Source: Minisyncoccota bacterium (GTDB taxonomy: Bacteria > Patescibacteriota > Minisyncoccia > Phycocordibacterales > JACRKE01). Taken from it: DNA of 64,000 bases. The stretch is taken from assembly GCA_041660505.1 (NCBI GenBank), contig JBAZWG010000001.1, positions 307,979 through 371,978 on the forward strand, read 5' to 3'. The notes beneath the pieces were generated by a model that saw nothing but the letters and a program-made list of their open reading frames with translations, ran no database searches and was not told the origin of the DNA. This document shows positions 25,175 through 60,964 of the stretch, in pieces (position 1 is the stretch's first letter; each line of letters opens with the position of its first letter). A program made the position numbers and the translations under genes.

Positions 25175-25219
25175 ATCTACCAGTATATTGCCTTTCTAGC
25201 CTTGGCGCAAGAAGAAATT

Positions 25220-41987: not shown

Positions 41988-41996
41988 GTCGTAATA

Positions 41997-43469
41997 CTAC
42001 TGTATTTCGCGCCACTTTAACAGTGCGTAGTTGGAGGAGACCAGCGGGAAAGATGGAGGCGGACTATAAAACAAGTTCTGATCATAGACATAAGTGCGCG
42101 TTTGGTAGCCGGTACCGTCGGCGTAGGCAAAGCCGGGACGGTCGAATGAAGTCATTGAACCGTAGAGATATAGGGACGCACGCGTATCATAGGGCGAGCA
42201 CTTATCATCATCCCCTTCTTTTTTATCAAATTTGAAACGTTGGACTGACCCGTCCTTCGCAATAAGCGCCGCATCGATGCGCAAGTTATCATCGCTCTGC
42301 CAACCGATATTGATGTTATTCTGGCCGAAAATTCCGATAACATCGGTACCGTCATAGTTGGTATATCGGATGCCGTGATTTATCGTTATATTTTTCTCTT
42401 GCCCGCTGAAACTTCCGGCAGCGAGCGTTACTCGCGTGTTGTTAACCTGTCCATCAATCCACAAGTCATCTTCAACGAAGATTATGCCGTTGGCGGGATA
42501 ATTGTTGGTACTCAATTTAGTTTCCGTATCTATTGCGCCCAATTCCCAGCCACTCTGCCCGCCGTTCGACGGACAGCTACCTCTGGGGACAAGTTTGTCT
42601 ACGTTATACACGTCGAAAGTACCGTTGATCTTAAGCACAATATGGTAACCGGCAGAATTCCCACCAGCTTTTGATAAGTGGAAGCCGCTTGAGGTTAATG
42701 ACTTTGTTTTCAAATCAAGCATAGTTGCCGTCAAGCTGGCGAAGCTTACCGCCGGAACAGTATAAAATGGCGGGAACTGTCGGCCGGCCAGGAAGACATC
42801 CGGCCGTGACGGAATAGACTGCACCGGCGGAACAGGGTCCACGGGAGAAACGTTGGTATTTACTCCTATCCTCTCCGTGTGTCCGTCGTCATCATAGGTA
42901 TCAATTGCGGCACTGACGATATTGTGGGCGACACCGTTGAATTGGATGCCGTGATTGCTGTGGACGAGACCATATGACTGTGCTCCGGTGCCCATCACCA
43001 TGCTCGAGTCGGTAAGAATTGCATACTTTGCGAACGAAGCCAGAGCGAGCGTTGCTTGAACCTTGCGCGTAATGCTCGAATCTTCTGCAACAGAACCGAT
43101 AGAAGTTATCACGACAGTCGTGGCACCTAGAGGCGGCGGCGTGATGGTTAAGGAATAACTTCCGATAGTATTCCCCAGTTTATCTTGATAAGTGTGCACA
43201 TAAGGCCCGACATGACCGGTGCCATCTTGATAATCGTTCTGGAAATGGGCAAGGTGCCAGCGATAGTATTCAATACCCGCCTCGGCAATATGGAATGCTT
43301 GTTCGCGTAAAACAGCCTTGCGAGTTGCATTCAGTGACGCTACTCCCCACAAAGCCAAGGCGCCAAGAAGAACGCTGCCTACGGTAGCAAAGACAAGGAC
43401 TTGGACGAGGAGAGCACCTCCGGAAGTTTTTAGTTTGTAGTTTTTAGTTTTTAGTAAAAACAAGATCAT
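41997..43469 (-). CDS. PilX-like type IV pilus assembly protein (N-terminal PilX domain)
   Basis: The N-terminus SGGALLVQVLVFATVGSVLLGALALWGVASLNATRKAVLREQAFHIAEAGIEYY matches the PilX_N pattern. Confidence 0.6.
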   Translation of the reverse strand: MILFLLKTKNYKLKTSGGALLVQVLVFATVGSVLLGALALWGVASLNATRKAVLREQAFHIAEAGIEYYRWHLAHFQNDYQDGTGHVGPYVHTYQDKLGNTIGSYSLTITPPPLGATTVVITSIGSVAEDSSITRKVQATLALASFAKYAILTDSSMVMGTGAQSYGLVHSNHGIQFNGVAHNIVSAAIDTYDDDGHTERIGVNTNVSPVDPVPPVQSIPSRPDVFLAGRQFPPFYTVPAVSFASLTATMLDLKTKSLTSSGFHLSKAGGNSAGYHIVLKINGTFDVYNVDKLVPRGSCPSNGGQSGWELGAIDTETKLSTNNYPANGIIFVEDDLWIDGQVNNTRVTLAAGSFSGQEKNITINHGIRYTNYDGTDVIGIFGQNNINIGWQSDDNLRIDAALIAKDGSVQRFKFDKKEGDDDKCSPYDTRASLYLYGSMTSFDRPGFAYADGTGYQTRTYVYDQNLFYSPPPSFPLVSSNYALLKWREIQ

Positions 43470-44077
43470 AGATTATCTTTCAAATTACGAATCGTCACTT
43501 GAGTACCGTCGACTATCGGAGCCGGTGAACGGTTCGGGTCAGGATCGACGCTCACGTTAACTTTTACCAAGCGCACTTGATCTATCGGTACAGGCTGGGT
43601 AAACGGCGCGCTATTACCGGTATAGGTGTCCGGATAATATGAAAATATTGCACTGCCGTTTGTGACGGTGTGCACCAGCTCTATAATTTTCTCGTTCGCA
43701 AGATTATATGTCGGCGGAGAGCCCAGTGTCGGCGAGATTATCCCCCTCTTTAATATATTGCCGCTCATATAATATCTGACCTTCTCGTGCGTACCATCGC
43801 CGTTTACATCGGAGAAAAAAGTAATGGCCGAACTTGATGCGACTATAAACAAGTAATCGCCGGCATCGGAGGGTTCGGCGGTTCGCAACTCTGCCGTGAA
43901 TTGCTTGAGTCCGCGACGCAATTCGTCTGATGCGATAAGCCGTTCTTGGTTGTAGGCGTTCAACGAGAAAACATCCCTGCTGAATGAGCTTACGGCAATA
44001 GCCAAGATTGCAAGAATAGCGATTGAAACCAGAAGCTCGGTCAACACAAATCCTTTATTATCATGTAGCCTCTCCAT
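43466..44077 (-). CDS. Type IV prepilin-like protein (minor pilin/pseudopilin)
   Basis: It has the class III signal MERLHDNKG|FVLTELLVSIAILAILAIAV, with Gly-Phe cleavage and Glu at +5. Confidence 0.75.
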   Translation of the reverse strand: MERLHDNKGFVLTELLVSIAILAILAIAVSSFSRDVFSLNAYNQERLIASDELRRGLKQFTAELRTAEPSDAGDYLFIVASSSAITFFSDVNGDGTHEKVRYYMSGNILKRGIISPTLGSPPTYNLANEKIIELVHTVTNGSAIFSYYPDTYTGNSAPFTQPVPIDQVRLVKVNVSVDPDPNRSPAPIVDGTQVTIRNLKDNL

Positions 44078-44080
44078 AAA

Positions 44081-45865
44081 TTATTGATGCGTAATATAAA
44101 CCAGGCGCTGCTGCCAGTCATCACTTACTAATATGTCATTTGCTATGGCCGTTGTATAGCCCGGAGCACTAATGGTGGCGGTGTAATAATTAGGAGAGCT
44201 ATATTTGGTCAGACCTTGGAACAACACTTCCCCCGACGGCGTGCAGGCAGTGGTGTACTGAAATTGCACGTCTGTTACGGACGGCGTCAAAGTAGACGAC
44301 GCGGTTTGTAAGAGTACTTTATACCTGAAGTAGCGATTGTTCGCGAGCTCACTGCCGATGGAATTTTGTGCCAGCGTGTAATACGTGCTTGCAGTACCGT
44401 CCGGGCCGATATAGTTCCAGGTGGTATTGTCGGTGTTGGCGGCAATTTGCATGCGCACCGCATTCGCCCCGACACCTGCCGGCACATCGACGGGGTTCCA
44501 TTTTACATTATAGAGCGACGCGACTATGCCAAGGTCGAAGCTAGATGATGTTAACCAACCGGACGGTGCGTAGGTCGAAAAAGTTTTGAGCAGACTGATT
44601 TGCCCAGCTGGCGTGATAGATATGTTGCCGTCAGAGTCATAAAATTTAGTTTGGTCGGTATAGTTCGCCTGCCCTGCTCCGCCGGACCAGTCTGTCTGTT
44701 CCAATACTCCAACGCCAGTCGACTTAGAAAGATTAACACTGTTCCCCGTCAGCGTGACGGTCGCGCCGGAAACAGGAAGTTTAGTGGCCGTGTCTTTTAT
44801 ATCCAAGAGCAACGCCGCCGCTTGTCTGGTATAAACTGTGAGGTTTATCGTCGCCGTCGAGGCAGGGGCGATAGCTATCGGCATTATCGGCAAAGCGCCG
44901 CCCAAATCATATGTTGTGCTGGATGATGTTATCGTGTAGTTGTCCCATTCGAGATTCGGGACAGTAATACTCCCTGTCGCACCGGTATTCTGTCGAACAA
45001 AGTATTTATAAACCGGCAAACCACTCTTGGTGCCTATTGTTTTATTGCCTCGGAGCATGAATGGGAAGTTCGGTTGTGGAACGCAAGATGTATTAACACT
45101 CTGGAATACTGGCGAGGCGGTCCGGTCTATATAAAACGAGAGACCGGTAGTCTGCCCTGCCGAGACTGTCGCATCGCGCACGGTTGGTGTCGGATTATCG
45201 CTTGTCACTTTATACGTTTTATCTGTGGAATAATTATCTTTAGTCGTGCTTAGCGCGTACGAAAGACTTGACGGTTTGACGTCATAAATAGTAAGCACCC
45301 CCTGCGCGTTAGTAACATCGAAGAAATTCAGATTGGGTGATACTGCGGTGTTGACGATCGTTACTTGCGCGCCTTGCACCGGCTGGGCAGAAGCATCGCG
45401 GACAGTAATCTTTAACGCACCGTTGTTGGTGGTGGTCTCAAGATTCTTCGGTGCTATCGTGGTTGTGAGCGCGATTGGCGTAAATTTTTTACACATACTG
45501 CAATCGACTGATATCTGCGCGAGCTTGTAATCTGCCTCGGCAGGGTCCGTCGGAAAGATACCATCCGACGGGTCATCGACATTACGGATGGTCGTCGTCA
45601 CCCGAAAGGTGTTGCCATCGCGAACGGTAGTAGTCGACTCCGTAACGACACCAGCCGGGATGCCGCCGATAATGCCGACGCTCTGATAAGGCAGATTGTG
45701 CAAAATTTCTATCTGCTCGTTCGCAAGCTCGATAGCATCAAGCTTGTCCCCCGCTCCGCGAGTAACGATCATCACGCTCGCGTAAGACTGATACATGGCG
45801 ATAGAGACGATAGCAAGCAATGCCGCCCCAACGACAATCTCAACCAGTGAAAATCCGCGCTTCAT
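44081..45865 (-). CDS. Large (594 aa) prepilin-type protein
   Basis: It has MKRG|FSLVEIVVGAALLAIVSIAM, a prepilin N-terminus, followed by a large beta-rich domain. Confidence 0.7.
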   Translation of the reverse strand: MKRGFSLVEIVVGAALLAIVSIAMYQSYASVMIVTRGAGDKLDAIELANEQIEILHNLPYQSVGIIGGIPAGVVTESTTTVRDGNTFRVTTTIRNVDDPSDGIFPTDPAEADYKLAQISVDCSMCKKFTPIALTTTIAPKNLETTTNNGALKITVRDASAQPVQGAQVTIVNTAVSPNLNFFDVTNAQGVLTIYDVKPSSLSYALSTTKDNYSTDKTYKVTSDNPTPTVRDATVSAGQTTGLSFYIDRTASPVFQSVNTSCVPQPNFPFMLRGNKTIGTKSGLPVYKYFVRQNTGATGSITVPNLEWDNYTITSSSTTYDLGGALPIMPIAIAPASTATINLTVYTRQAAALLLDIKDTATKLPVSGATVTLTGNSVNLSKSTGVGVLEQTDWSGGAGQANYTDQTKFYDSDGNISITPAGQISLLKTFSTYAPSGWLTSSSFDLGIVASLYNVKWNPVDVPAGVGANAVRMQIAANTDNTTWNYIGPDGTASTYYTLAQNSIGSELANNRYFRYKVLLQTASSTLTPSVTDVQFQYTTACTPSGEVLFQGLTKYSSPNYYTATISAPGYTTAIANDILVSDDWQQRLVYITHQ

Positions 45866-45867
45866 AG

Positions 45868-47085
45868 CTAGCTTATCGAGTTACCAATAGAATAGATGGG
45901 TTGAATGATAGAAATGGCGAAAAATCCGACGGCACCTCCGATAAGGAGCATCATGAGAGGCTCGATGATCGTCGACATATCTTTGGTCGCTGAGTCTACC
46001 TCCTCTTCATAAAAAACTGCGGTCTTCATCAGCATTCCGGCCAAGTCTCCTGTCTCCTCTCCCACTTCTATCATCTCACCCACAAGTATCGGGTAGAGCT
46101 TCTCGTTGGCTTGGAAGACGGCAGAAAGCGGCTTGCCTTTTTGAACAGCGCTGACAGCTTCATCCAAAACTTGCTTATATAAGTCGTTCTGCATTACGCC
46201 CTTGGTTGTCTCCAAGGCTTGCACCATATCCACACCGGAGGAGATAAGCGACGAGAGCGTGCGTGCGGTCTGTGCGGCGTTGGATTGTTTTATTATATTA
46301 CCAATAACCGGCGCATGCAGGGATATAAAGGTAACTGCACGCTTACCAAACACCGTCTTAAAGAACCAAGTAAGCAGTGCGACAGTGGCGATAAGCACGA
46401 ATAGCGCGATAAAATAATGATTGACCAGAAAAGAGCTCGTCCCGATAATGAGCTGGGTCTGCCACGGCAGGGCCACATGCATCGAGGTGAACGTCTTGGT
46501 CAATGTCGGCACGACGAATATCATCATCAGGACACTGATAATAATCATTATACCGATAATGACTGCGGGGTATATCATCGCCCCCTTGACCTTGCGCTGG
46601 ATGGTGTAAGTCTTCGTCATCTGTTCGGCGAGCATCTTAAGAGAGCTTGGGAGATTACCCGACTGCTCCCCCGCTTTAACCATCGCCGAGAAAACCGGCG
46701 GGAATATCTTGCTCTCCTTCGCCAACGCATCACTCAAGCTCCCGCCGGCGTCTATCTCGGCAGTAATCTCTTTGGCCACTTTCTTTAATTTTTGATTGCT
46801 TGTCTGACGATCCAGAATTTTAAGCGCGCGCGAAAGCGATAAGCCGGCCGTGAGCATCGAGCTTAAGTTGTTGGCGAAGGTGATCTTGTGCTTAAGAGGC
46901 ACCGAGACAACCATCTCGTTCAAGCCTTTGAAATAGTCGGCAAAAGCCTTGGTCTCGGCAGTCGCCGAGACGATAGAAAGTCCCTCCTTACGCAACTCGT
47001 GCGCCAGCTCGAACTTATCCCGCGCCTCGCGGACGCCAGTCGCACTCGCGCCACTAGCATTTTTCGCAGTGTACTTGAACTTCAT
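45868..47085 (-). CDS. pilC: Type IV pilus assembly platform protein PilC (GspF family)
   Basis: 405 aa. It has two T2SSF repeats and 3 TM helices. Confidence 0.85.
   Translation of the reverse strand: MKFKYTAKNASGASATGVREARDKFELAHELRKEGLSIVSATAETKAFADYFKGLNEMVVSVPLKHKITFANNLSSMLTAGLSLSRALKILDRQTSNQKLKKVAKEITAEIDAGGSLSDALAKESKIFPPVFSAMVKAGEQSGNLPSSLKMLAEQMTKTYTIQRKVKGAMIYPAVIIGIMIIISVLMMIFVVPTLTKTFTSMHVALPWQTQLIIGTSSFLVNHYFIALFVLIATVALLTWFFKTVFGKRAVTFISLHAPVIGNIIKQSNAAQTARTLSSLISSGVDMVQALETTKGVMQNDLYKQVLDEAVSAVQKGKPLSAVFQANEKLYPILVGEMIEVGEETGDLAGMLMKTAVFYEEEVDSATKDMSTIIEPLMMLLIGGAVGFFAISIIQPIYSIGNSIS
47045..47085. repeat. 41-bp direct repeat, copy 1 (the pilC 5' end)
   Basis: ctcgcgccactagcatttttcgcagtgtacttgaacttcat is repeated at 48317-48357 with 3 mismatches. 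Confidence 0.85.
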
Positions 47086-47106
47086 ATGTTTATAGTATAG
47101 CGCACC

Positions 47107-48228
47107 TTAGCCAGAGATAAAATCAGAAAAGTTTTCTTTATTCACAGTTATATAGCTACCTTGGTATGTCTCGATAAAGTTCTTTGGTGGACGGGCGTGC
47201 TTCTCTCCCCATTTGAATTCATAACCATGGATTGCTCCATCATACTCTTCAACATAATCAACTTCCCCACTACGGCGGTCTCTCCAAAAGAAATGATTTC
47301 GATACATCATGGAGTTTCCCAGGGACTTCATTCTTTCAACGATGCAAAAGTTCTCCCAAAGTGCCCCAATATCATCTCTTACCGGAAGCTGATTGAAACG
47401 ACTAATAATAGCGTTACGCATTCCAAGATCGTAGAAGTATATCTTGTTTTTTTTGCCGATTTCATTTCTTGGATTCCGTGATAGAGGATAGAGCGTGAAA
47501 ATAACAAAAGACTTCTCGAGCAAATCAAGATATCGAGAAATAGTGACTCTGCCTGTTTCAAGTTTCGTCGCTAATTCATTCAATGAAACTTCGTTCCCCA
47601 CTTGCAGCGCTAATAATTGCAATAGATTTGTGAGTAGCTTTGGTTTTTTTACTTGTTCAAATTCGAGTACATCTCGGAAAAGGTAGTTGGAGGATATATT
47701 TTGCAGAAATAGTTCTGCGTCATGCCACCCGCGCTGAGTGAGCTCGGGATAACTTCCATAACGCAACATTGAGTCCAAGACGTTTGCCATCTCCCATGGC
47801 TCCTTCATTGCCGCAATTTCCCCATACGAAAATGGATAGAGATGGAATTCAACCGATCTGCCTGTTAGCGGTTCGCTAATCTTATTTGCCAAATCAAATG
47901 ATGACGACCCTGTAGCCAGTAGTTGTAGTTCAGGAAATGTATCTTTGAGCAACTTCAGTGCTAAACCAATGTTTTCTACTCTTTGAGCTTCATCGAGAAC
48001 AAAAAATGTGCCCTCCCCAAGGTATGCCCGCAATTGCGCAGCATTCTGTGATTCAAGCGCTTGACGCGTTTCCAGATTCTCGCAATTAATATACTTCCCC
48101 TTGCGGTCTTTCAGAATCTCTTTTGCCAGCGTGGTTTTGCCAACCTGACGAGGGCCATAAAGTATCGCTATTTTACCCTGCTCTAGCCAATGTTCAATTT
48201 GGGCCTTAATAGTACGTTTTATGAACAT
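47107..48228 (-). CDS. AAA+ ATPase of the DUF4143/COG1373 type
   Basis: 373 aa. It has Walker A (ILYGPRQVGKTTLA) and Walker B (FFVLDEAQ). It is flanked by a duplicated pilC start segment. Confidence 0.7.
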   Translation of the reverse strand: MFIKRTIKAQIEHWLEQGKIAILYGPRQVGKTTLAKEILKDRKGKYINCENLETRQALESQNAAQLRAYLGEGTFFVLDEAQRVENIGLALKLLKDTFPELQLLATGSSSFDLANKISEPLTGRSVEFHLYPFSYGEIAAMKEPWEMANVLDSMLRYGSYPELTQRGWHDAELFLQNISSNYLFRDVLEFEQVKKPKLLTNLLQLLALQVGNEVSLNELATKLETGRVTISRYLDLLEKSFVIFTLYPLSRNPRNEIGKKNKIYFYDLGMRNAIISRFNQLPVRDDIGALWENFCIVERMKSLGNSMMYRNHFFWRDRRSGEVDYVEEYDGAIHGYEFKWGEKHARPPKNFIETYQGSYITVNKENFSDFISG

Positions 48229-48316
48229 AATGTATGTATATATTACAATATAATCAGTTAATATGTAACTTACATGTACATTATATACACACAGAGATGA
48301 ATGTCAAGTGTGTGCT

Positions 48317-48357
48317 TTCGCGCCACTAGCATTTTTCGCAGTGTAATGAAACTTCAT
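48317..48357. repeat. 41-bp direct repeat, copy 2 (a duplicated pilC start fragment encoding MKFHYTAKNASGAKAH*)
   Basis: ttcgcgccactagcatttttcgcagtgtaatgaaacttcat. Confidence 0.85.
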
Positions 48358-48361
48358 TATA

Positions 48362-52090: not shown

Positions 52091-52160
52091 GAATTTATAT
52101 ATTATTGTAATTACTCTATTATATTCCTAAATTCTAAAATTCTTTAATTCTGTCTGTGTA

Positions 52161-53972
52161 TTACTCATTCGCTACACGCAAGACTTCCTCTATGCTCGTT
52201 ACGCCTTGTGCGGCTTTAAATATGCCATCTTCGAACATCGTAAGCATGCCGGCCGCACGGGCAGTGCGCTCCAAGTCGGCATCGCTCGCGTTCTTGATGA
52301 TTAATTCTTTAATCGCCGGTGTCATCTTCATAATCTCGTGAATACCGACACGACTCTTATAGCCATCCGGGCAGTCTGGCGATGGCTTGGGGCGACAGAA
52401 TTGGATTTTTGAAAAGTCATCGGTCGGGCCGACTATTTTCTCTTCTCGTAATTTTTGCAGTACGACATCGAGATTAATATGCTTCTTTAGTGACTCTATC
52501 TCGCCCGCCGTCAGCGTGTATTTCTCGTTGACGTGGTGCAAACGCCGCACCAAGCGCTGAGCGATGACCACGTTAAGGGTTGAGACGAGCAAGAACGGCT
52601 CCACCCCCATATCAATAAGCCTCGGCACCGCACCGGCAGCCGAGTTGGTGTGCAAAGTAGAAAGCACAAGATGGCCGGTCAACGCCGCATTGATGGCAAG
52701 AGATGCTGTCTCTTTGTCGCGAATCTCCCCCACCATTATAATATTCGGATCTTGGCGCATCAGGGCACGCAAACCGGCACCGAAGGTCAGGCCGATGTCG
52801 GGCTTAACCTGCGTCTGATTAACACGACCCATCTGATATTCGATCGGATCCTCTATTGTAGAAATATTTACGTCCGGTGTATTTAGCGTGTCTATCATCG
52901 TATAGAGCGTCGTCGTCTTGCCCGAGCCGGTCGGGCCGGTGGCCAGGATTATCCCCGTCGTTTGTCTCATTGCGTCGTGAATAGCTTCGAGCCCGGCGCC
53001 ATGGAAGCCGAGCACCTCGAGAGTGAATCCCTTTGCTGTATCGGGAAGCAAGCGCATCACCACCTTCTCGCCGAAGTATGTCGGCAAGAGCGAAACGCGG
53101 AATGACACCTTCTGCCCAGTCTCGGCATTGTCGATTTTAAATCGTCCGTCTTGAGGCAAGCGCTTTTCATCTAGGCGCAGGTGCGAAAGCACTTTGATGC
53201 GCGCCACGATGCCGGAAGCGGCGGCGATTGGCAATATCATTGCGTCATGCAAGATACCGTCGATGCGATAGCGGATTACGAGCTGGCCCTCGAAAGGTTC
53301 GATATGAATATCCGACGCCTGCTGGAGAATGGCGTGCTCGAGCAAAGCGTCCACAATGCGCACCACCGGCACATCTTCTGCCAGCTTAGCCAGATCAGGA
53401 TCAACTTCAGGGCCAGAGGTGAGTCCTCTGACATTTTCAGCGGCCGAGGTGAGTCCTCCGGTTTCAGCGGAGGTCTCTCCTCGGCCACCTATCTTCCTCG
53501 CCTCTGAACTTATAATACTGCCAAACTCGTCGCGCAAGCTTTTCTGATATTGGATAAGACCTCCTTTTATAGATTCTGTGTCTGTGAGCCGCGGTAAAAT
53601 GCGCACACCCGTGCGCTTGGCGATGAACTCGATAGCCTCCACGTCTTGCGGATCAAGCATCGCTACCTCGATATTGTTGTCTTTATCTCTCGCGTAAGCG
53701 AGCACATTGTGTTTGCGCGCAATCGGTTCCGGGATTATTGCAAGCAGTTTCGGGTCTATCTTCTGACCCTTTAAAGATATGAATGGAATGCCGAAGAGGT
53801 ACGCCTGCACACGGCGGAATTCGTCTTCGGTAATCTTACCTTCAGAAACTAAAACGTCGCCGACCGTTCTATCCTTCTCCTTTGCAAGTTTATCTGCCGC
53901 GTCGAAGTCGGCACCAGAGATCAAGCCGGCATCGAGCACGAATTGCTTGAGCTGTTTGGTGTCGAGTTGCAT
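52161..53972 (-). CDS. pilB: Type IV pilus assembly ATPase PilB (GspE family), with an in-frame repeat-derived insertion in the linker
   Basis: It has an N-terminal GSPII_E_N domain and Walker A GPTGSGKTTTL. The start is placed at MQLDTKQL (53972), because the track start 53993 lies in a family-1 repeat. Nucleotides 53413-53486 encode RGETSAETGGLTSAAENVRGLTSG. Confidence 0.85.
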   Translation of the reverse strand: MQLDTKQLKQFVLDAGLISGADFDAADKLAKEKDRTVGDVLVSEGKITEDEFRRVQAYLFGIPFISLKGQKIDPKLLAIIPEPIARKHNVLAYARDKDNNIEVAMLDPQDVEAIEFIAKRTGVRILPRLTDTESIKGGLIQYQKSLRDEFGSIISSEARKIGGRGETSAETGGLTSAAENVRGLTSGPEVDPDLAKLAEDVPVVRIVDALLEHAILQQASDIHIEPFEGQLVIRYRIDGILHDAMILPIAAASGIVARIKVLSHLRLDEKRLPQDGRFKIDNAETGQKVSFRVSLLPTYFGEKVVMRLLPDTAKGFTLEVLGFHGAGLEAIHDAMRQTTGIILATGPTGSGKTTTLYTMIDTLNTPDVNISTIEDPIEYQMGRVNQTQVKPDIGLTFGAGLRALMRQDPNIIMVGEIRDKETASLAINAALTGHLVLSTLHTNSAAGAVPRLIDMGVEPFLLVSTLNVVIAQRLVRRLHHVNEKYTLTAGEIESLKKHINLDVVLQKLREEKIVGPTDDFSKIQFCRPKPSPDCPDGYKSRVGIHEIMKMTPAIKELIIKNASDADLERTARAAGMLTMFEDGIFKAAQGVTSIEEVLRVANE

Positions 53973-53983
53973 GAGATCGACAC

Positions 53984-54024
53984 CGAGGTTCAACCTTTTT
54001 GATGCCTAAGGTTGAACCTCGGTG
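53984..54024. repeat. Family-1 paired palindrome, extended variant (ccgaggttcaacc...ggttgaacctcgg)
   Basis: accgaggttcaacctttttgatgcctaaggttgaacctcggtgg. Confidence 0.8.
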
Positions 54025-54027
54025 GCA

Positions 54028-54504
54028 TTATTTGATAAGTACGATACGTTTCGCGCTAAATGAAGTGCTCGTGATATCCGCTCCGGCCTCCGCCGACACA
54101 TTCATCCCCGCCTTCAAGTCAGCCAGTTTGATATTCTTCTCTAGAAACGGATTGAACTGCTCCCCCGCCTTCGGCACCGCTTGCAGATTTAGCTCTCTGC
54201 TTATCAGAACAGTTGCGCCGGAGACCTCAACTGTATAGGCCGTCGAAGCTACCTTCCCCGCCGTCGGGTCATAAGGAGGCTGTACGTCGAGCGTTAGTGA
54301 GTTGCCGGAAACCGCTATTATTTTACCCGAGACACTGGTAATACGAGTCGGTGCTGGCGGGATGACCCCAGATTGCTGTAAGTTCGCGCGCACCTCTTGC
54401 CGGGCATTGCCAGCCCCGTTTTCGTAGCCCATGGTATATCCCGCGACTCCGCCGAGTATCAACCCGACAATAACTCCTATTATTATTTCTTTTGTTGTAT
54501 TCAT
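54028..54504 (-). CDS. Hypothetical membrane-anchored protein
   Basis: 158 aa. It has the N-terminal TM helix IIIGVIVGLILGGVAGY. It lies between the second fibre gene and pilB. Confidence 0.5.
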   Translation of the reverse strand: MNTTKEIIIGVIVGLILGGVAGYTMGYENGAGNARQEVRANLQQSGVIPPAPTRITSVSGKIIAVSGNSLTLDVQPPYDPTAGKVASTAYTVEVSGATVLISRELNLQAVPKAGEQFNPFLEKNIKLADLKAGMNVSAEAGADITSTSFSAKRIVLIK

Positions 54505-54513
54505 GATTATTAT

Positions 54514-57500
54514 TTATCGCTTGATGCAAGAAAATGCATAAGTTCTGGCCTCGTTGGCAAGCTGGGCATTATCTTTAATATTAAAGCTGATGGCTCCGGT
54601 AGTAACAATCTTCCAACCTGCTTCACACCCCTTCCCCGACATCGGTGCGATAAACGATGTCATGAAATCCCCGCTCGCAACCTTGGCCGCAATAACTGAA
54701 TCAGGAATTTCACATGAAGTGGGTGTGCAGTATGTCTGCGGTTGTATAAATGCTGAAACCCCATACCCTGCAATCGAACCGGCAGGAAGTGAGTTGTAGT
54801 TAGCTATTGTTGCACCGGTGCCTGCAGGACCTTGCGGTCCGGCAGGACCAGCCGGGCCCATTGGCCCAACTGTACCGCCAGTTCCTCCTCCAGTGATCCC
54901 TAAATCGGTTAGCGACTTCCAGCTCGCCGTACCATCACCAAATGAAGCAAGGATTTTTGATGTTTGTCCGGTACTCAAACCTTCCGTACCATCAGCAATA
55001 CGCACCTTGCCGCCGACTTCGAGCATGAGTTGAGGGGCGGTTTGCGCTTGTGCGGTTCCGATAAGAGAACTTACGGAAGCTGTTTGTTTTTGTGATTGCT
55101 GTTCATCTCCTCCAAATAGCGACGAGAACCATGAGCCGACCGAAGCCAACAATCCCTTCTTCTCGACATTGGCAATTGTTTTGCTTGCCGAAGCATTGAT
55201 TGAGAATATATTACTCTCGCTAGCCGGAACAAGAGGATAACACACCCCCTTATACAGAAGGGTATCTAGACTGGTAGACACTCCCGGCACAAAACTAAAG
55301 ATTGTGCCTGCGTCCAGTTGACCGCGACCCAATCCCATTGACCCCGGATTGTTGGTATATCCGGCAAAACATTTTGCATGGAGACCTGCAACCGCCGCAT
55401 ACCCATAGACTGAAGTGTTTGGCGCGACGACAGCGGGACCTTCTTGTGTAACAGGCGTATTGGTGTATGAGTGAACCGATGTGTACCAATCTTCAAACTT
55501 AGTATCATTTGGGGCGTGACAAATAGCGAGGGCTTTATGAGGTATTAAATCCCCGCCCGTATCTCGCATTTGGTCGAGAGTGGTCCAACCGGATGGACAC
55601 GTTGCCCGCTCTTCTTGAACTCCACTGGCCCCTTTAACAACAACCATGCCCACGCCTCCGGGGACGTCCGCCCAAGTTGTAAGTCGGTGATTATTCGGTT
55701 CACAAATAGCATGCAGGTTACTGATATGCGCAGTGAAACTATCGAGTTTAGTCATTCCGGATGGGCACGCACTGGTAGAACTCATAAAGCCGAGGCCGGA
55801 TGGAAGTGTCATCGTCTTTGGAGTCGGTGGTGCGTCAGTTGCCGTCATAGGTGGTAACACTGCCGGCGGGACCCCAGCCACTCCTGGCGACTTGCCGGTG
55901 GCAGATATAAGAACCTTGGCCCTAGCAATCACAGCCGTTCCATCTTTATCGCTTGCGGAGAAGTCTCCCCCGACACCACCAGGGCCACCACCTCTTCCAA
56001 CGACACCAGCACCGCCAAGATTGTTATAACCCATGACACCGTAAGTATTGCCATGTCCCACTATGCCATAGTTTCCAGTACTTTCACCGCGTATAGCAGC
56101 GCCCTTATCCGCAGACACCTCCAAGCGTGCGTCCTTCGGCTTTCTGACACCAACACCGATCCTTCCGTCTACATAGAGGTTGGCTGGGTCGGTCGGCGCG
56201 TCTGCCACTTCCGCTCCATAAGCGCCATGGGCTTTCCTTACGGCTTCGGCTTTTGTTATGCCGATACTTATATAGACACACATGGCATAATCGTCTTGCG
56301 TTATGCGATTGTCACCGTCTACATCAAGCTCTGCGAATTCCACAGTAGTTGGAGTATACGTGCCAAGCAGGTAGTTAGTTACTTTTTGCTGACTTGTCGC
56401 CGCTCCTCCTCTGCAATTCCCCCCACCGCCACCTCCTCCGCCAAGTTCACTTAAGCTCTTCCAACTAGCATTCCCCGTCGCGTCAGATGCGAGTACTTTT
56501 TTATCGCCTTCGTTAATACCTGTAAATTTGAGCGGACCGCTTGTTACAAGAGCCATGGAACCGGGATATCCAGTGAAAGAACCAGCGGTTGAACCATTCC
56601 CACTGCTTACGCCTGAAATTGCGATGGAACCCTGTCCTGTTACCGTCGCATCAACGCCTCTGGCGTCCACACCGTTCGTTTCTGTAATAATTCCGGTAGC
56701 ACTGCGAACATTACCGGTGTGTCTGATAGAAATACCAAGCGGTGATTTTACTCTGACTGAAGTGCCGATTTCTATCGCCCCCGGGTTTCCGGGAAAACTG
56801 TCGTATTGTCTCACCATCGAATCTCCAAGGACGCTACCGCCAACCCACTTAGGAAGATACCCTGGTGTACCACCGCCCGTAACGCCTGGTGGTGGCGGGG
56901 GGCAGTTGGTGCCTACACACTGTATTTTCGGTACGCAGATAGGCCTCCTTGTCGTCTGGTCGAAACCTTGAATCACTTTATCGACACCGCAATCGCCTAT
57001 CGCAGTTAAGATGGTCGGTGTGTCCGCACTGATAGTGCCACTTGTTGTAATTTTGTTAGGATCGGCGCCGTTGCCAGTGAAGACGATACCGTTGCCTTTA
57101 TTAAGTTCGCTGATGCCCGTATCGATAAAATCTCGCGTAACAAGATCAGACCATTTATTGATACAGTGCTGGTCGTCCGGCAAGCAGAGGCCAAGTGTCT
57201 TTATATTGCCTGCGACGTTGAAGAGCTGGGTGAAGAAGTTATTGTTATTATTGCCGACACCAGGATGGACAACTCCGTTATTGTCAGTAAATTCATAAAA
57301 TAACGAATCACCGAGGTTTGTAGCACCGAACCATCTGGCAAGCCTGCCTGGTGTGCCTTGGCCGGTTAGGCCACTACCCCCTGGCGTAATGATAATACAG
57401 TCAGCTGTCTGACCTGTTGCGATTTGCTCGGGGGTACAGATATTGGTGTTCGTAATATGATTGCTAATCTGCGTCCAGTCATATTGAGTAAAGCTATTCG

Positions 57501-57822
57501 TGATGTTAGTTCCACCGCCACCGCCAGAAGGCCAATTGGGACCCGTAACACAATTTCCGATATGGTCCGCTCTGGTAACATCAAAAAAACAAAATTGACC
57601 ACCAACCACTTTACTTGGCGTCAAAACACCGAATGGGTCGGTATTCATGTTCCCCACAATAACTCGCCCTTGTTTAACTTGTCCGGCAGGGCTAACATTA
57701 AGGGGTGCATCACAGCCCGAGTCGCCAGAAAGACAGCCCGGTGGCGTACGTAGTGGGCCAGTCCATGCCAAGACGACAATTGGGGCGACTAGTAGTATAA
57801 ATAGAGCGAAAGTTTTTTTCAT
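54514..57822 (-). CDS. Giant secreted fibre-like protein, paralog of the 48362 gene, with collagen-like repeats
   Basis: 1102 aa. Its N-terminus MKKTFALFILLVAPIVVLA-WTGPLRTPPG matches the other fibre protein. It has the collagen-like tract GPMGPAGPAGPQGPAGTG and a Cys-containing C-terminal domain. Confidence 0.75.
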   Translation of the reverse strand: MKKTFALFILLVAPIVVLAWTGPLRTPPGCLSGDSGCDAPLNVSPAGQVKQGRVIVGNMNTDPFGVLTPSKVVGGQFCFFDVTRADHIGNCVTGPNWPSGGGGGTNITNSFTQYDWTQISNHITNTNICTPEQIATGQTADCIIITPGGSGLTGQGTPGRLARWFGATNLGDSLFYEFTDNNGVVHPGVGNNNNNFFTQLFNVAGNIKTLGLCLPDDQHCINKWSDLVTRDFIDTGISELNKGNGIVFTGNGADPNKITTSGTISADTPTILTAIGDCGVDKVIQGFDQTTRRPICVPKIQCVGTNCPPPPPGVTGGGTPGYLPKWVGGSVLGDSMVRQYDSFPGNPGAIEIGTSVRVKSPLGISIRHTGNVRSATGIITETNGVDARGVDATVTGQGSIAISGVSSGNGSTAGSFTGYPGSMALVTSGPLKFTGINEGDKKVLASDATGNASWKSLSELGGGGGGGGNCRGGAATSQQKVTNYLLGTYTPTTVEFAELDVDGDNRITQDDYAMCVYISIGITKAEAVRKAHGAYGAEVADAPTDPANLYVDGRIGVGVRKPKDARLEVSADKGAAIRGESTGNYGIVGHGNTYGVMGYNNLGGAGVVGRGGGPGGVGGDFSASDKDGTAVIARAKVLISATGKSPGVAGVPPAVLPPMTATDAPPTPKTMTLPSGLGFMSSTSACPSGMTKLDSFTAHISNLHAICEPNNHRLTTWADVPGGVGMVVVKGASGVQEERATCPSGWTTLDQMRDTGGDLIPHKALAICHAPNDTKFEDWYTSVHSYTNTPVTQEGPAVVAPNTSVYGYAAVAGLHAKCFAGYTNNPGSMGLGRGQLDAGTIFSFVPGVSTSLDTLLYKGVCYPLVPASESNIFSINASASKTIANVEKKGLLASVGSWFSSLFGGDEQQSQKQTASVSSLIGTAQAQTAPQLMLEVGGKVRIADGTEGLSTGQTSKILASFGDGTASWKSLTDLGITGGGTGGTVGPMGPAGPAGPQGPAGTGATIANYNSLPAGSIAGYGVSAFIQPQTYCTPTSCEIPDSVIAAKVASGDFMTSFIAPMSGKGCEAGWKIVTTGAISFNIKDNAQLANEARTYAFSCIKR

Positions 57823-57829
57823 AAAAAAA

Positions 57830-58144: not shown

Positions 58145-58145
58145 T

Positions 58146-60908: not shown

Positions 60909-60936
60909 TTGCAAATTTGGCGGGGGGGGGTAGAAT
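60909..60936 (+). promoter_or_regulatory. Candidate sigma70-like promoter with a G9 homopolymer in the spacer (phase-variation candidate)
   Basis: TTGCAA-atttggcggggggggg-TAGAAT has a 16-nt spacer, about 30 nt upstream of the MKKYLAG start. Confidence 0.5.
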
Positions 60937-60964
60937 GGATGTATTAATGCGTAATAAATTTTCT

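What the first reader, a model, noticed from the sequence alone, without database searches (positions are those of the whole stretch)
41997..57822. Type IV pilus locus with two embedded giant collagen-like, tail-fibre-like secreted proteins
The gene order on the minus strand is:
- a 1102-aa fibre protein;
- a 158-aa membrane protein;
- pilB;
- a 1242-aa fibre protein;
- the inserted ATPase;
- pilC;
- a 594-aa prepilin-like protein;
- a 203-aa prepilin-like protein;
- a PilX-like protein.

The two giant proteins are paralogous at the N-terminus (signal peptide, then AWTGPxxTPPG). Both contain collagen-like Gly-X-Y tracts. The 1242-aa one also has many repeats of the form GNVGIGTxxPxxKL(D/E)V, which resemble phage tail-fibre repeats. 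The 1102-aa one instead has poly-Gly segments and a Cys-containing C-terminal domain. Fibre or adhesin genes interleaved between pilB and pilC are atypical. The usual pilM/N/O/Q genes and a major pilin are not in the window. For an organism likely to live attached to a host cell, this could be a composite attachment organelle in which a pilus-like machine displays or secretes tail-fibre-like adhesins.
Basis: partly seen in the sequence, partly recalled or inferred. Interest (0 to 1): 0.65.

Follow-up and report, generated by a model that had tools for sequence, protein, structure and literature searches.

The report
Tail-fibre-like adhesins wired into pilus operon
An ultrasmall (CPR/Patescibacteria) bacterium encodes two giant, phage-tail-fibre-like secreted proteins inside its type IV pilus operon, and they belong to a previously undescribed protein family that sits next to pilus genes in many such bacteria, pointing to a combined pilus-plus-fibre system for grabbing host cells.

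Summary
On the minus strand of a Paceibacteria (CPR) chromosome lies one tightly packed run: two small membrane proteins, fibB (1102 aa), a 158-aa membrane protein, pilB, fibA (1242 aa), an AAA_14/DUF4143 ATPase, pilC, three pseudopilin-like genes, tpiA and pgk.

Both giants start with a Sec signal peptide followed by a roughly 40-aa N-terminal module (AW-x-GP-x3-PP…P[LI]N[VA][SG]-x3-Q-x-K-x-G). A profile of fibA's stalk module matches solved Bdellovibrio MAT fibres (8OND, E=4.5e-10).

In 33 of 39 related genomes pilB and pilC are adjacent. The interleaving therefore arose by insertion, but the closest relative (PilB 70% identical) also has fibres on both sides of pilB.

The N-module family is linked to pilus genes well beyond this locus. 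pilB follows within 7 kb in 7 of 17 informative metagenome loci, and 5 of 9 homologues found by sequence lie in pilus clusters. No viral contig carries the module.

The ATPase is a separate later insertion of a defence-candidate gene (PDC-S01). It has its own promoter and a 40-nt duplication of the pilC start.

Best reading: surface adhesive fibres co-expressed with pili for host capture. Physical mounting on the pilus, or export by it, is unproven. I class this as a new variant of a known kind.

The parts
58146..58394 (-). 82-aa small single-pass membrane protein. It is the first gene of the run, 1 nt before the next gene.
   Evidence: The ORF and its translation show a basic N-tail, one hydrophobic helix and a polar tail.
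57830..58144 (-). 104-aa small membrane protein with a repeat-bearing tail (orf127 read from Met24). It is the counterpart of the small membrane protein that precedes N-module fibre genes elsewhere.
   Evidence: Translation is. Proteins of the same architecture (N-tail, one TM helix, tail with 2-4 short repeats such as LSxxExxxLL) lie directly upstream of N-module genes in L084, L107, L116, L119, L125, L142, L151, L155, L160, L166 and L167.
54514..57822 (-). fibB, 1102 aa: a Sec-exported mosaic fibre protein. Its parts are the N-module, a dockerin-like Ca-binding motif, poly-Gly runs, a short collagen tract and a Cys knob.
   Evidence: The 5.8-billion-protein search returned only two homologues besides itself: P0117 (33% identity over 71% of the length, upstream of pilB in L081) and P0118. 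There is no Pfam, NCBIfam or PHROG hit.
57649..57768 (-). fibB N-module (residues 19-58), directly after the signal peptide: LAWTGPLRTPPGCLSGDSGCDAPLNVSPAGQVKQGRVIVG.
   Evidence: Alignments A1, A2 and A5. An HMM built from the module scores fibB at 5.4e-20.
54823..54876 (-). fibB collagen-like tract of 6 Gly-X-Y triplets (residues 983-1000).
54517..54729 (-). fibB C-terminal 4-Cys knob (residues 1032-1102), ending …GCEAGWKIV…AFSCIKR. It is shared with a different fibre gene (p787) in L081, not with the orthologue P0117, which indicates tip swapping.
   Evidence: p787 residues 671-785 align with fibB 991-1101 at 32.5% identity, while P0117 aligns only up to fibB residue 970. Similar C-terminal endings occur in family members.
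54028..54504 (-). 158-aa single-pass membrane protein between fibB and pilB. Its function is unknown.
   Evidence: No family hit. One weak relative (23% identity) follows N-module giants in L095, and a 164-aa membrane protein occupies the same place in L129.
52161..53993 (-). pilB, the type IV pilus extension ATPase. The true start is probably the ATG at 53972, because relatives align from residue 8.
   Evidence: T2SSE 1.7e-120 and MshEN 3.8e-15. It is 57-63% identical to Paceibacteria PilB and 70% to the L081 PilB.
48362..52090 (-). fibA, 1242 aa: a Sec-exported fibre protein of the MAT / tail-fibre type. Its parts are the N-module, FLRGDGTW and VLTSDxxGxATW motifs, a collagen tract, GNVGIGT capping-loop repeats and a Cys knob.
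   Evidence: PHROG 9942 tail fibre scores 3.2e-7. The stalk profile hits PDB 8OND (Bd2133) at 4.5e-10.
51917..52021 (-). fibA N-module (residues 24-58): AWTGPTQTPPGADKDAPISSGASDQTKQGGLRVGT. This is the form without the Cys pair.
   Evidence: The N-module HMM scores it at 1.4e-14.
50591..50680 (-). fibA collagen-like tract of 10 Gly-X-Y triplets (residues 471-500).
49535..49663 (-). fibA stalk module GNVGIGTITPGAKLEVAGQVKITGGTPGAGKVLTSDAAGLATW (residues 810-852). It is 65-93% identical to copies in Bacteroidota, Bdellovibrionota and CPR proteins.
   Evidence: The profile matches solved MAT fibres and MyRF.
48365..48541 (-). fibA C-terminal 4-Cys knob (residues 1184-1242), ending …SGCPAGYTRVG…LYTCMKD.
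   Evidence: Similar endings occur in family members, for example L127 QCPSGYNKV…SFTCYK.
48318..48357 (-). Remnant copy of the first 40 nt of pilC (93% identical), starting 4 nt after the fibA stop codon. It is the duplication left by the ATPase-cassette insertion.
   Evidence: Direct repeat D1, 47046-47085 and 48318-48357. Sequence read.
48280..48307 (-). Perfect sigma-70 consensus promoter (TTGACA-16-TATAAT) at the 5' edge of the inserted cassette.
   Evidence: 12 of 12 matches, the best of 36 sites in the region.
47107..48228 (-). AAA_14/DUF4143 ATPase, matching PADLOC defence candidate PDC-S01. It is an independently inserted accessory gene, not part of the pilus or fibre system.
   Evidence: Pfam hits. 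PDC-S01 at 1.8e-138 over the full length. Flanking 40-nt duplication. GC3 of 0.40 against 0.60-0.64 for pilB and pilC.
45868..47085 (-). pilC, the pilus platform protein.
   Evidence: T2SSF 1.5e-61 in two copies. It follows pilB directly in 33 of 39 related loci.
44081..45865 (-). 594-aa modular pseudopilin: a prepilin N-terminus with grafted beta-sandwich domains.
   Evidence: N_methyl 1.2e-4 and CarboxypepD_reg 6.9e-7. TIGR02532. Conserved after pilC in relatives at 30-46% identity.
43466..44077 (-). 203-aa minor pseudopilin.
   Evidence: N_methyl 8.2e-5. TIGR02532 at 1.1e-5, with weak GspJ and ComGE/GF hits.
41997..43469 (-). 490-aa conserved locus member with an N-terminal hydrophobic segment. 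The 'PilX-like' label is unverified.
   Evidence: No profile hit. Conserved in this position in relatives at 26-46% identity.
40091..41987 (-). tpiA and pgk. They follow the pilus genes with gaps of 9 and -8 nt and form the conserved tail of the gene run.
   Evidence: Translations, synteny and spacing.

Best explanation
**What the locus is.** It is the conserved Paceibacteria type IV pilus core operon: pilB, pilC, three pseudopilin-like genes, tpiA and pgk, divergent from nusA. Genes for cell-surface adhesive fibres have become built into it.

**What the fibres are (inferred).**
- fibA and fibB are exported by the Sec pathway and most likely form trimeric fibres like phage tail fibres or Bdellovibrio MAT fibres.
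- Each has a conserved, CPR-specific N-terminal module of about 40 aa at the cell-proximal end. It may dock on the small repeat-tail membrane protein encoded just upstream.
- The shaft combines beta-helix capping-loop repeats with a short collagen tract.
- The distal ends are variable and swappable, and finish in a small disulfide-bonded knob that would bind the host cell surface.

**How it works (inferred).** The fibre genes sit in one tightly spaced, same-strand run with the pilus genes. Fibres and pili would therefore be made together: the pilus reaches and pulls, and the fibres lock onto a specific host.

**How the arrangement arose.**
- Fibre genes colonised the flanks of pilB. A small-TM-protein-plus-N-module cassette upstream of pilB is widespread. 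The copy between pilB and pilC is confined to this lineage.
- Later, a defence-candidate ATPase cassette with its own promoter landed in the first 40 nt of pilC.

**Shown versus inferred.**
- Shown: gene content, homology of the stalk to solved MAT fibres, the family-wide synteny with pilus genes, and the insertion footprint.
- Inferred: trimerisation, surface display, adhesion, co-transcription, and the anchoring role of the N-module and the small membrane protein.
For: **Pilus core and its conservation.**

**Packing of the run.** Same-strand gaps range from -8 to 133 nt, with no convincing terminator: terminator-like sites number 21 against 19.1 expected.

**Fibre nature.**
- The profile of the 43-aa stalk module hits solved Bdellovibrio MAT fibres: 8OND 4.5e-10, 8OML 2e-5, 8OL4 9e-4, and MyRF.
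- This module matches the capping-loop motif V-G-G/N-pi-x-x-P-x-x-x-L that PMC10769870 defines. That paper also shows MAT fibres on the predator surface binding prey glycans.
- N-module relatives P0003, P0155 and P0236 end in Peptidase_S74.

**Mosaic tips and fast divergence.**
- The fibB tip matches p787, not its orthologue P0117.
- fibB and P0117 are 31-33% identical, while the neighbouring PilB proteins are 70% identical.

**Link to pili.**
- The closest relative, L081, has three N-module fibres and a fourth fibB-like fragment flanking pilB.
- L084 and L168 have a fibre directly upstream of pilB in the same nusA-pilB slot.
- P0015 heads a pilM-pilB-pilT-pilC cluster.
- P0155 lies between pilD and small downstream genes of a pilB-pilT-pilC-pilin cluster.
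- Among N-module loci pulled from metagenomes by the peptide pattern alone, 7 of 17 dereplicated clusters with at least 3 kb of downstream sequence have pilB within 7 kb on the same strand. These include PilB types only 28-36% identical to this one. Three more lie next to a pilin, pilC or pilD.
- My own estimate of the chance expectation is about 1-3% for a random gene in a genome of about 1 Mb.

**Not phage.** None of 12 pattern matches in 2.9 million viral contigs was confirmed.
Against: - There is no direct evidence of expression, trimerisation, surface display or binding.
- Both structure predictions were unusable, with mean pLDDT of 28.7 and 50.4.
- About half of the N-module genes are not near pilus genes. 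A second recurrent site is FtsH-DUF7544-small protein-fibre.
- In most close relatives the locus has no fibre gene.
- The same nusA-pilB slot holds unrelated giant surface proteins in other genomes, including NHL propeller, Big_7 and InlB-repeat proteins.
- This genome also has giant secreted-protein genes between fusA and tuf. Insertion into conserved operons is therefore not special to the pilus locus.
- The fibre genes have lower GC3 than pilB and pilC (0.44 against 0.60-0.64). That fits accessory or weakly expressed genes.
- An AT-rich 70-nt gap with a TATAAT-like box precedes fibA, so separate transcription is possible.
Confidence: 0.55

Rival explanations
1. Hot-spot hitch-hiking only. 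The flanks of pilB are a permissive variable region where accessory genes accumulate. The fibre genes are ordinary variable surface proteins with no functional tie to the pilus.
For: - pilB and pilC are adjacent in 33 of 39 relatives. The six other insertions between them hold unrelated cargo, such as a methylase-like pair in L033 and ABC-transporter genes in L042.
- The nusA-pilB gap varies from 0.2 to 10 kb and carries unrelated giant proteins.
- Defence and toxin genes sit in the same regions: PDC-S01 here, AbiEii in L081 and a RelE-like gene in L033.
- This window also has insertions inside the str and S10 operons.
- The fibre genes have low GC3.
Against: - The N-module family was retrieved by sequence alone, yet it lies beside pilus genes in at least four different cluster layouts and next to PilB clades as low as 28-36% identical.
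- A positional hot-spot in one lineage does not predict this.
- Before the ATPase insertion, the fibA stop codon and the pilC ATG were 4 nt apart, which indicates operon integration.
Confidence: 0.2
2. Composite organelle. The fibres are physically mounted on the pilus, for example at its tip with the minor pilins as PilY1 is. Alternatively, the pilus machine pushes them through the cell envelope, as a type II secretion pseudopilus pushes its substrates.
For: - There is conserved synteny with pilB, pilC, pilD and pilin genes.
- The conserved N-module could be a docking or recognition element.
- PilY1-type tip adhesins are likewise Sec-exported non-pilins encoded among minor pilin genes (general knowledge; PMC8833165 abstract).
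- The MAT authors themselves raise a possible interplay with type IV pili.
Against: - There is no prepilin signal, and Pfam detected no PilY1/PilC-type domain.
- About half of the family lies away from pilus genes.
- No structural or interaction evidence could be obtained.
Confidence: 0.15
3. The fibres are structural envelope or S-layer-like components, or contact-dependent weapons, rather than host-binding adhesins.
For: - They are large, secreted, repeat-rich proteins with no recognisable binding domain.
- The same small C-terminal Cys knob recurs across the family, which is not obviously a variable receptor-binding tip.
Against: - The stalk is homologous to MAT and tail fibres, whose known role is target recognition.
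- The distal regions are mosaic and diverge fast.
- No toxin or enzyme domain was detected.
Confidence: 0.07
4. The giants are remnants of a prophage or tailocin.
For: - Weak similarity to PHROG tail fibre (3.2e-7) and to S74 tail fibres of cyanophages and a Thermus phage, at 25-34% identity.
Against: - No other phage structural gene was found in the scanned ORFs of the 64-kb window.
- The surrounding gene order is conserved chromosomal synteny.
- The N-module is absent from IMG/VR viral contigs.
- The proteins carry Sec signal peptides.
Confidence: 0.02

Closest known systems
Bdellovibrio bacteriovorus MAT (mosaic adhesive trimer) fibre superfamily (Caulton et al. 2024, PMC10769870; PDB 8OND, 8OML, 8OL4, 8ON4, 8OJN)
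   Same: - Both have a signal peptide followed at once by a family-conserved N-terminal element.
- Both have a long stalk with repeated capping-loop motifs. The GNVGIGTxxPxxKL repeat here corresponds to V-G-G/N-pi-x-x-P-x-x-x-L, and the profile hit to Bd2133 is E=4.5e-10.
- Both have mosaic, swappable C-terminal tips.
- Both families include members with and without S74.
- Both belong to organisms that must seize another bacterium and that also use type IV pili.
   Different: - The N-terminal element is unrelated. Here it is a module of about 40 aa, Pro-rich and often disulfide-looped. In MATs (and in the Bacteroidota hits) it is a beta-rich domain of about 130 aa.
- The fibres here carry collagen-like tracts and a small Cys knob.
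- The host organism is a CPR bacterium, presumably without an outer membrane.
- The genes lie in conserved synteny with pilus genes and a small membrane protein, which the MAT paper passages I read do not mention.
- Trimer formation and surface display are untested here.
Phage tail fibres and tailspikes with a Peptidase_S74 intramolecular chaperone (phage T5 L-shaped fibre, K1F endosialidase)
   Same: - The stalk repeat type is shared, along with the FLRGDGTW and VLTSDxxGxATW motifs.
- Relatives P0003, P0155 and P0236 end in S74.
- There is weak direct similarity to cyanophage and Thermus phage fibres.
   Different: - The genes are cellular and carry Sec signal peptides.
- fibA and fibB themselves have no S74 domain.
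- There are no phage neighbours.
- The N-module is not found in viral contigs.
PilY1 / PilC1 pilus-tip adhesins of type IVa pili
   Same: - Both are large, Sec-exported, non-pilin proteins.
- Both are encoded within pilus gene clusters beside minor pilins and are thought to mediate adhesion.
   Different: - There is no sequence or domain similarity; no PilY1 beta-propeller was detected.
- The architecture here is fibrous and repeat-based.
- Attachment to the pilus is not shown.
'Tail fiber domain-containing proteins' of Bacteroidota (NCBI annotation name)
   Same: - Their 43-aa stalk modules are nearly identical to the one in fibA, and they carry collagen tracts. P0002 and P0007 are the best full-length hits to fibA.
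   Different: - They have a different N-terminal domain.
- Their neighbours are Por_Secre_tail (type IX secretion) genes, not pilus genes.

Membership tests
Type IV pilus / type II secretion-like filament system | Extension ATPase of the GspE/PilB family | tested here: met
   T2SSE 1.7e-120 and MshEN 3.8e-15 on 52161-53993.
Type IV pilus / type II secretion-like filament system | Polytopic platform protein of the GspF/PilC family | tested here: met
   T2SSF 1.5e-61, two domains, on 45868-47085.
Type IV pilus / type II secretion-like filament system | Proteins with a prepilin (class III) signal and N-methylation motif | tested here: met
   N_methyl and TIGR02532 on the 594- and 203-aa proteins.
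Type IV pilus / type II secretion-like filament system | Major pilin, prepilin peptidase, and alignment or retraction parts (PilD, PilM/N/O, PilT) present in this locus | tested here: not met
   None was found in the window. They may lie elsewhere in the roughly 719-kb genome, which I could not examine.
MAT (mosaic adhesive trimer) fibre superfamily | N-terminal signal peptide | tested here: met
   Read directly from the sequence: a basic n-region, a hydrophobic core, then ALA|W in fibA and VLA|W in fibB. No dedicated predictor was run.
MAT (mosaic adhesive trimer) fibre superfamily | Beta-helical stalk with repeated capping-loop motif V-G-G/N-pi-x-x-P-x-x-x-L | tested here: met
   fibA has 4 strict and about 6 loose copies. 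The module profile hits 8OND at 4.5e-10 and four other MAT chains. fibB has only degenerate copies.
MAT (mosaic adhesive trimer) fibre superfamily | The conserved beta-rich N-terminal domain of about 130 aa shared by all 21 Bdellovibrio MATs | tested here: not met
   fibA and fibB carry a different module of about 40 aa. The predatory-bacterium and Bacteroidota hits whose N-termini I read (P0004, P0072, P0002, P0006, P0007) start with a distinct Y/F-x-Y-Q/S-G… domain.
MAT (mosaic adhesive trimer) fibre superfamily | C-terminal S74 chaperone-protease or an alternative adhesive tip domain | tested here: inconclusive
   fibA and fibB have no S74. Both end in a small 4-Cys knob of unknown fold. 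The structure prediction of the fibB C-terminal part failed; fibA's tip was not modelled. Relatives with the same N-module do end in S74.
MAT (mosaic adhesive trimer) fibre superfamily | Trimeric assembly and display on the cell surface | not testable with these tools
   Only single-chain prediction was available. Multimer modelling or experiment is needed.
Phage tail fibre (as part of a virion or prophage) | Encoded among phage structural or baseplate genes | tested here: not met
   The synteny is chromosomal and the ORFs scanned include no phage genes. The N-module is absent from viral contigs.
Collagen-like protein (Pfam Collagen PF01391) | Extended Gly-X-Y repeat region recognised by the profile | tested here: not met
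   The tracts have only 10 and 6 triplets. There is no Pfam Collagen hit at E<=0.01. Collagen-like is therefore a local feature, not the architecture.
PilY1/PilC-type pilus tip adhesin | C-terminal PilY1 beta-propeller domain | tested here: not met
   No such Pfam hit on either giant.
PilX (minor pilin) for the 490-aa protein | PilX N-terminal domain or a prepilin motif | tested here: not met
   No Pfam or NCBIfam hit, even at E<=10 on the N-terminal 142 aa.
PADLOC defence candidate PDC-S01 (AAA_14/DUF4143 ATPase) | Full-length match to the PDC-S01 model | tested here: met
   E=1.8e-138 over residues 1-371 of 373. A defence function is itself only a candidate annotation.

The most novel reading that the evidence does not exclude
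Across the CPR, a dedicated cassette feeds phage-tail-fibre-like trimers to the type IV pilus apparatus. The cassette consists of a small repeat-tail membrane protein and one or more fibres bearing the N-module. The fibres would be mounted on the pilus, or exported and positioned by it. The result would be a hybrid pilus-plus-tail-fibre organelle that determines which host cell an episymbiont can attach to, with tip swapping as the mechanism of host-range change.
Probability: 0.15. Interest if true: 0.85.

Novelty: new variant of a known kind. Interest (0 to 1): 0.62.

Why it matters
How CPR/Patescibacteria recognise and hold on to their host cells is a central open question. Type IV pili are known to be required in cultivated Saccharibacteria (PMC9894109, PMC12206443, PMC11665869), but the determinants of specificity are unknown.

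This locus and its relatives define a sequence-searchable family: a signal peptide, a roughly 40-aa N-module, a stalk of the MAT or tail-fibre type, and a variable distal part. The family is genetically coupled to pilus genes in many CPR lineages and evolves much faster than the pilus motor.

That gives concrete candidates for host-range determinants. It also gives a short peptide pattern (GCDAP[LI]N[VA][SG]) to find them in any metagenome, and a direct parallel to the fibres that Bdellovibrio uses on prey.

No paper in the searchable library links MAT or tail-fibre proteins with CPR pili.

Tried and rejected
**Searches and predictions that gave nothing usable**
- Pfam, NCBIfam and PHROG scans of the giants gave no hit, apart from one weak PHROG tail-fibre match for fibA.
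- Whole-protein searches of the PDB returned only low-complexity noise. Only the 43-aa module profile worked.
- AlphaFold2 of fibB residues 641-1102 with a 3-sequence alignment gave mean pLDDT 28.7. The N-module with 11 sequences gave pLDDT 50.4. Neither was usable, so no fold search was run.
- The broad N-module alignment A1 was too variable for the metagenome scan (error). As a protein-search query it returned only 10 short fragments.
- The representative-library search with A5 was swamped by stalk repeats, with 35,954 hits. It therefore measures the size of the stalk-repeat superfamily, not of the N-module family.

**Ideas tested and dropped**
- The CPxGW/Y C-terminal regions might be phage tail-collar domains. 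No Pfam Collar hit appeared even at E<=10.
- The 490-aa protein might be PilX. There is no support.
- The locus might be a prophage.
- The ATPase might be part of the pilus system. It is a separately inserted PDC-S01 cassette with a target duplication.

**Things I could not do**
- I could not fetch the rest of the L081 contig to see where pilC lies there.
- I could not assign a lineage to the divergent PilB loci L107, L142 and L155. They are about 38% identical to everything I held.

Full report
**1. What is in the window**

The 64-kb window is a chromosomal stretch of a Patescibacteria/CPR bacterium of the class Paceibacteria. Its PilB is 57-63% identical to PilB of MAGs labelled Yonath-, Zambryski-, Nomura- and Kaiserbacteria. 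Both giant proteins are found, at 100% identity, only on a single 719-kb JGI contig.

The genes around the finding are housekeeping genes:
- nusA lies upstream and is divergent.
- tpiA, pgk, recJ and comEC lie downstream.
- The str and S10 ribosomal operons lie further along.

The window holds no tRNA gene and no Rfam match.

Pfam confirms the following:
- pilB: T2SSE plus MshEN.
- pilC: T2SSF.
- Prepilin motifs in the 594- and 203-aa proteins.
- AAA_14 plus DUF4143 in the inserted ATPase.

The run is tightly packed, with gaps from -8 to 133 nt. Two small single-pass membrane proteins (58146-58394 and 57830-58144) precede fibB, and tpiA and pgk follow the last pilus gene.

**2. The two giants**

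fibB (54514-57822) and fibA (48362-52090) share several elements:
- a Sec-type signal peptide ending ALA|W or VLA|W;
- an N-terminal module directly after it;
- 'G-x-KVL(T/A)S-x-x-x-G-x-A-(T/S)-W' motifs;
- one short Gly-X-Y tract each (10 and 6 triplets);
- a C-terminal knob with four cysteines.

fibA additionally has FLRGDGTW motifs and GNVGIGTxxPxxKL(D/E)V repeats, 4 strict and about 6 loose. No curated profile library recognises either protein, apart from one PHROG tail-fibre hit for fibA at 3.2e-7.

The 43-aa stalk module of fibA is GNVGIGTITPGAKLEVAGQVKITGGTPGAGKVLTSDAAGLATW. It is 65-93% identical to copies in proteins of Bacteroidota, Bdellovibrionota and CPR. A profile of this module hits the solved Bdellovibrio bacteriovorus MAT fibres and MyRF:
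- 8OND (Bd2133), E=4.5e-10
- 8OML, E=2e-5
- 8OL4, E=9e-4
- 8ON4, E=3.5e-3

This module matches the 'capping loop' motif V-G-G/N-pi-x-x-P-x-x-x-L that Caulton et al. describe for trimeric beta-helical MAT fibres. They showed that those fibres are displayed on the predator surface, carry mosaic tips, and in one case bind prey glycans (PMC10769870).

Direct similarity to real phage fibres is weak, at 25-34% identity to S74-bearing fibres of cyanophages and a Thermus phage.

**3. A defining N-terminal module**

Right after the signal peptide both giants carry A-W-x-G-P-x3-P-P-…-P-[LIV]-N-[VA]-[SG]-x3-Q-x-K-x-G. fibB has the commoner form with a Cys pair (PPxCxxGxxGCDAPLNV), and fibA has a form without it.

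This module differs from the beta-rich N-domain of about 130 aa in Bdellovibrio MATs, and from the related domain in the Bacteroidota hits.

Other proteins that carry it:
- P0003, P0015, P0117 and P0118;
- three L081 fibres;
- short proteins in L029, L030 and L033;
- many fragments.

A scan of 2.9 million viral contigs with the peptide pattern found no confirmed copy.

**4. Is the interleaving conserved?**

In 39 Paceibacteria pilB loci the core order is nusA (divergent), then pilB, pilC, the 594-, 203- and 490-aa homologues, tpiA and pgk. pilB and pilC are no more than 190 bp apart in 33 of the 39. The six exceptions hold unrelated cargo. A fibre gene between pilB and pilC is therefore a derived state.

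The closest relative available is L081, with PilB 70% identical. Its order is:
- a partial fibB-like fibre (p787);
- AAA_14;
- an AbiE pair;
- P0117, the fibB orthologue;
- a 684-aa N-module fibre;
- pilB;
- a small 23S-IVP gene;
- a 2112-aa fibA-like N-module fibre.

Fibres therefore lie on both sides of pilB there too.

fibB and P0117 are only 31-33% identical although their PilB neighbours are 70% identical. The C-terminal tip of fibB matches p787 rather than P0117. Both points fit fast-evolving, mosaic distal ends.

**5. Family-wide link to pilus genes**

*Homologues found purely by sequence.* Of the nine with usable context, five are pilus-linked.

| Protein (locus) | Context |
|---|---|
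| P0003 (L084) | nusA, three small ORFs, fibre (S74), pilB, pilC … tpiA, pgk |
| P0247 (L168) | nusA, 421 aa, 110 aa, fibre, pilB, tpiA, pgk |
| P0015 | fibre, 611 aa, pilM … pilB, response regulator, pilT, pilC |
| P0155 (L166) | pilB, RR, pilT, pilC, pilin, pilin, Wzy_C, pilD, 178 aa, fibre (S74) |
| P0117 (L081) | as described in section 4 |
| P0118, P0159, P0236, P0180 | not next to pilus genes; two of them share another site, FtsH, DUF7544, small protein, fibre |

*Independent sample from metagenomes.* The peptide pattern GCDAP[LI][NH][VAI][SG] retrieved 157 confirmed loci from JGI metagenomes, of which 80 were fetched.
- After dereplication these fall into 55 clusters.
- 7 of the 17 clusters with at least 3 kb of downstream sequence have pilB within 7 kb on the same strand.
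- These include PilB types only 28-36% identical to the window's.
- Three of the 'negatives' lie beside a prepilin, pilC or pilD gene, and one more has the layout of a positive locus but is cut short.

My own estimate of the chance expectation is 1-3% for a genome of about 1 Mb with one or two pilB genes.

*Other features of the family.*
- Most members are small (190-650 aa), so the giants here are the long end of the range.
- A small membrane protein of about 95-180 aa usually precedes the fibre gene. It has an N-tail, one TM helix and a tail with short repeats. The window's 104-aa protein has this architecture.
- Secreted proteins with GYAWS/NIGW repeats often accompany the fibre genes.

**6. 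The inserted ATPase**

The AAA_14/DUF4143 gene matches PADLOC defence candidate PDC-S01 over its full length (E=1.8e-138). A perfect TTGACA-16-TATAAT promoter precedes it, and its GC3 is the lowest of the larger genes in the run (0.40).

A 40-nt direct repeat brackets the cassette. One copy is the first 40 nt of pilC. The other (93% identical) starts 4 nt after the fibA stop codon.

The cassette therefore landed in the 5' end of pilC. Before that, fibA and pilC were 4 nt apart. The ATPase is an independent accessory insertion, not part of the pilus or fibre system.

Similar ATPases lie beside N-module genes in L081 and L110. I cannot tell whether that is more than coincidence.

**7. Most likely mechanism**

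*Shown:*
- a conserved pilus core operon;
- two Sec-signal-bearing proteins, one of which has a stalk homologous to solved adhesive trimeric fibres;
- a CPR-specific N-module family in recurrent synteny with pilus genes and a small membrane protein;
- mosaic, fast-diverging distal parts.

*Inferred:*
- The proteins form trimeric surface fibres.
- The N-module anchors them, on the small membrane protein, on the wall, or on the pilus.
- The distal parts bind the host.
- Fibres and pili are expressed together, so that pilus retraction brings the fibres into contact with the host.

I give this reading 0.55. The stronger claim, that the pilus machine mounts or exports the fibres, gets 0.15.

The main rival is hitch-hiking in a variable hot-spot (0.2). 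The evidence for it is as follows:
- Fibres are absent from most related loci.
- Unrelated giants such as NHL propeller and Big_7 proteins occupy the same slot.
- Defence and toxin genes lie in these regions.
- This genome also has insertions within fusA-tuf and the S10 operon.
- The fibre genes have low GC3.

A hot-spot in one lineage does not explain the association across different pilus-cluster layouts.

**8. Comparison with what is known, and novelty**

- The stalk places fibA in the MAT / S74 tail-fibre superfamily. That superfamily is very large: 35,954 clusters at 50% identity matched a profile containing one stalk repeat.
- The defining N-domain of the Bdellovibrio MATs is not present, so I do not file the proteins as MAT members in the strict sense.
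- They are not PilY1 and not a phage part. They are 'collagen-like' only in a short tract.
- Type IV pili in CPR are well known and are needed for host association in Saccharibacteria (PMC9894109, PMC12206443, PMC11665869).
- I found no paper linking tail-fibre or MAT-like proteins to CPR pilus loci.

Verdict: a new variant of a known kind. It has a clear, testable bearing on how episymbionts choose their hosts.

**9. Limits**

- Both structure predictions failed.
- No expression or localisation data were available.
- The lineage of several metagenome loci is unknown.
- The rest of the source genome and of the L081 contig could not be examined.
- The enrichment estimate rests on 26 informative cases and a rough chance expectation, not on a formal permutation test.

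Noticed in passing
window 46950-48450 (repeat copies at 47046-47085 and 48318-48357): A 40-nt direct repeat (93% identical) brackets the AAA_14/DUF4143 gene and its perfect sigma-70 promoter. One copy is the start of pilC. The other follows the fibA stop codon by 4 nt and would encode a 17-aa remnant, MKFHYTAKNASGAKAHT. This long target duplication suggests that PDC-S01 cassettes move by an unknown mechanism.
   Followed up: partly
window 11764-12564 (-): A 266-aa IS200-like Y1 transposase gene sits inside the S10 ribosomal-protein operon, between the L2 gene (12612-13451) and the S3 gene (10180-10872).
   Followed up: no
window 16868-26500 (-), also 60917-62695 (+): About 10 kb of secreted-protein genes separates fusA (26574-28721) from tuf (15532-16722): a 426-aa fn3 protein, a 980-aa protein and a 1345-aa protein with four dockerin domains. 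They share a different N-terminus (MKKLLGGLLLAGLVFVS followed by a Q/L-rich helical stretch), which also occurs in the 592-aa protein at 60917-62695. Giant surface-protein genes inside conserved operons seem to be a habit of this genome.
   Followed up: partly
window 407-2209, 3352-5106, 5161-6900 (+): Three paralogous proteins of about 580-600 aa with an N-terminal double CxxC motif (KxCQNCKKxFxIExxDFxFYEKIxVPxPTxCPxCR). None has a Pfam hit.
   Followed up: no
window 60028-60897 (+) and 21229-21687 (-): A 289-aa fusion of a Pol-beta-type nucleotidyltransferase with a HepT-like RNase (toxin and antitoxin in one chain), and a separate 152-aa nucleotidyltransferase. Both have weak PADLOC PDC-S09 hits.
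   Followed up: no
window 62784-63902 (-): A 372-aa protein that combines a YkuD L,D-transpeptidase domain with a Peptidase_S11 D-Ala-D-Ala carboxypeptidase domain. This is an uncommon fusion of two cell-wall enzymes.
   Followed up: no
L029 7322-8686; L030 8765-9937; L084 8445-9554; L095 14647-16095; L125 5374-6744; L129 6312-10292; L154 1994-3763: Secreted proteins built of GYAWS/NIGW(I/V)SF repeats repeatedly sit next to N-module fibre genes and pilB in related loci. No such protein is in the window, and no family name was found for them.
   Followed up: partly
L170 and L171, 4547-5998: A diversity-generating retroelement (bAvd plus reverse transcriptase) lies about 4 kb upstream of an N-module fibre pair at the FtsH-DUF7544 site. 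I did not determine whether it targets the fibres.
   Followed up: no
L168 10158-13907: In this relative pilB is followed directly by tpiA and pgk, with no pilC or pseudopilin genes, yet a 1694-aa N-module fibre still sits immediately upstream of pilB.
   Followed up: no
window 48362-52090 and 54514-57822: The public JGI gene models for both giants (P0001, 1085 aa; P0116, 1044 aa) begin at internal Met codons. They omit the signal peptide and the conserved N-module, which would hide the family from annotation-based searches.
   Followed up: yes
window 40091-58394: Third-position GC separates the core genes (pilB 0.60, pilC 0.64, pp594 0.56) from the fibre and accessory genes (fibA 0.44, fibB 0.44, the 104-aa membrane protein 0.37, the ATPase 0.40).
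   Followed up: partly
L110 4453-7402: Two N-module genes with nearly identical 5' halves flank an AAA_14/DUF4143 gene that is 44% identical to the window's. This is the third independent case of this ATPase lying beside N-module genes, after the window and L081.
   Followed up: no
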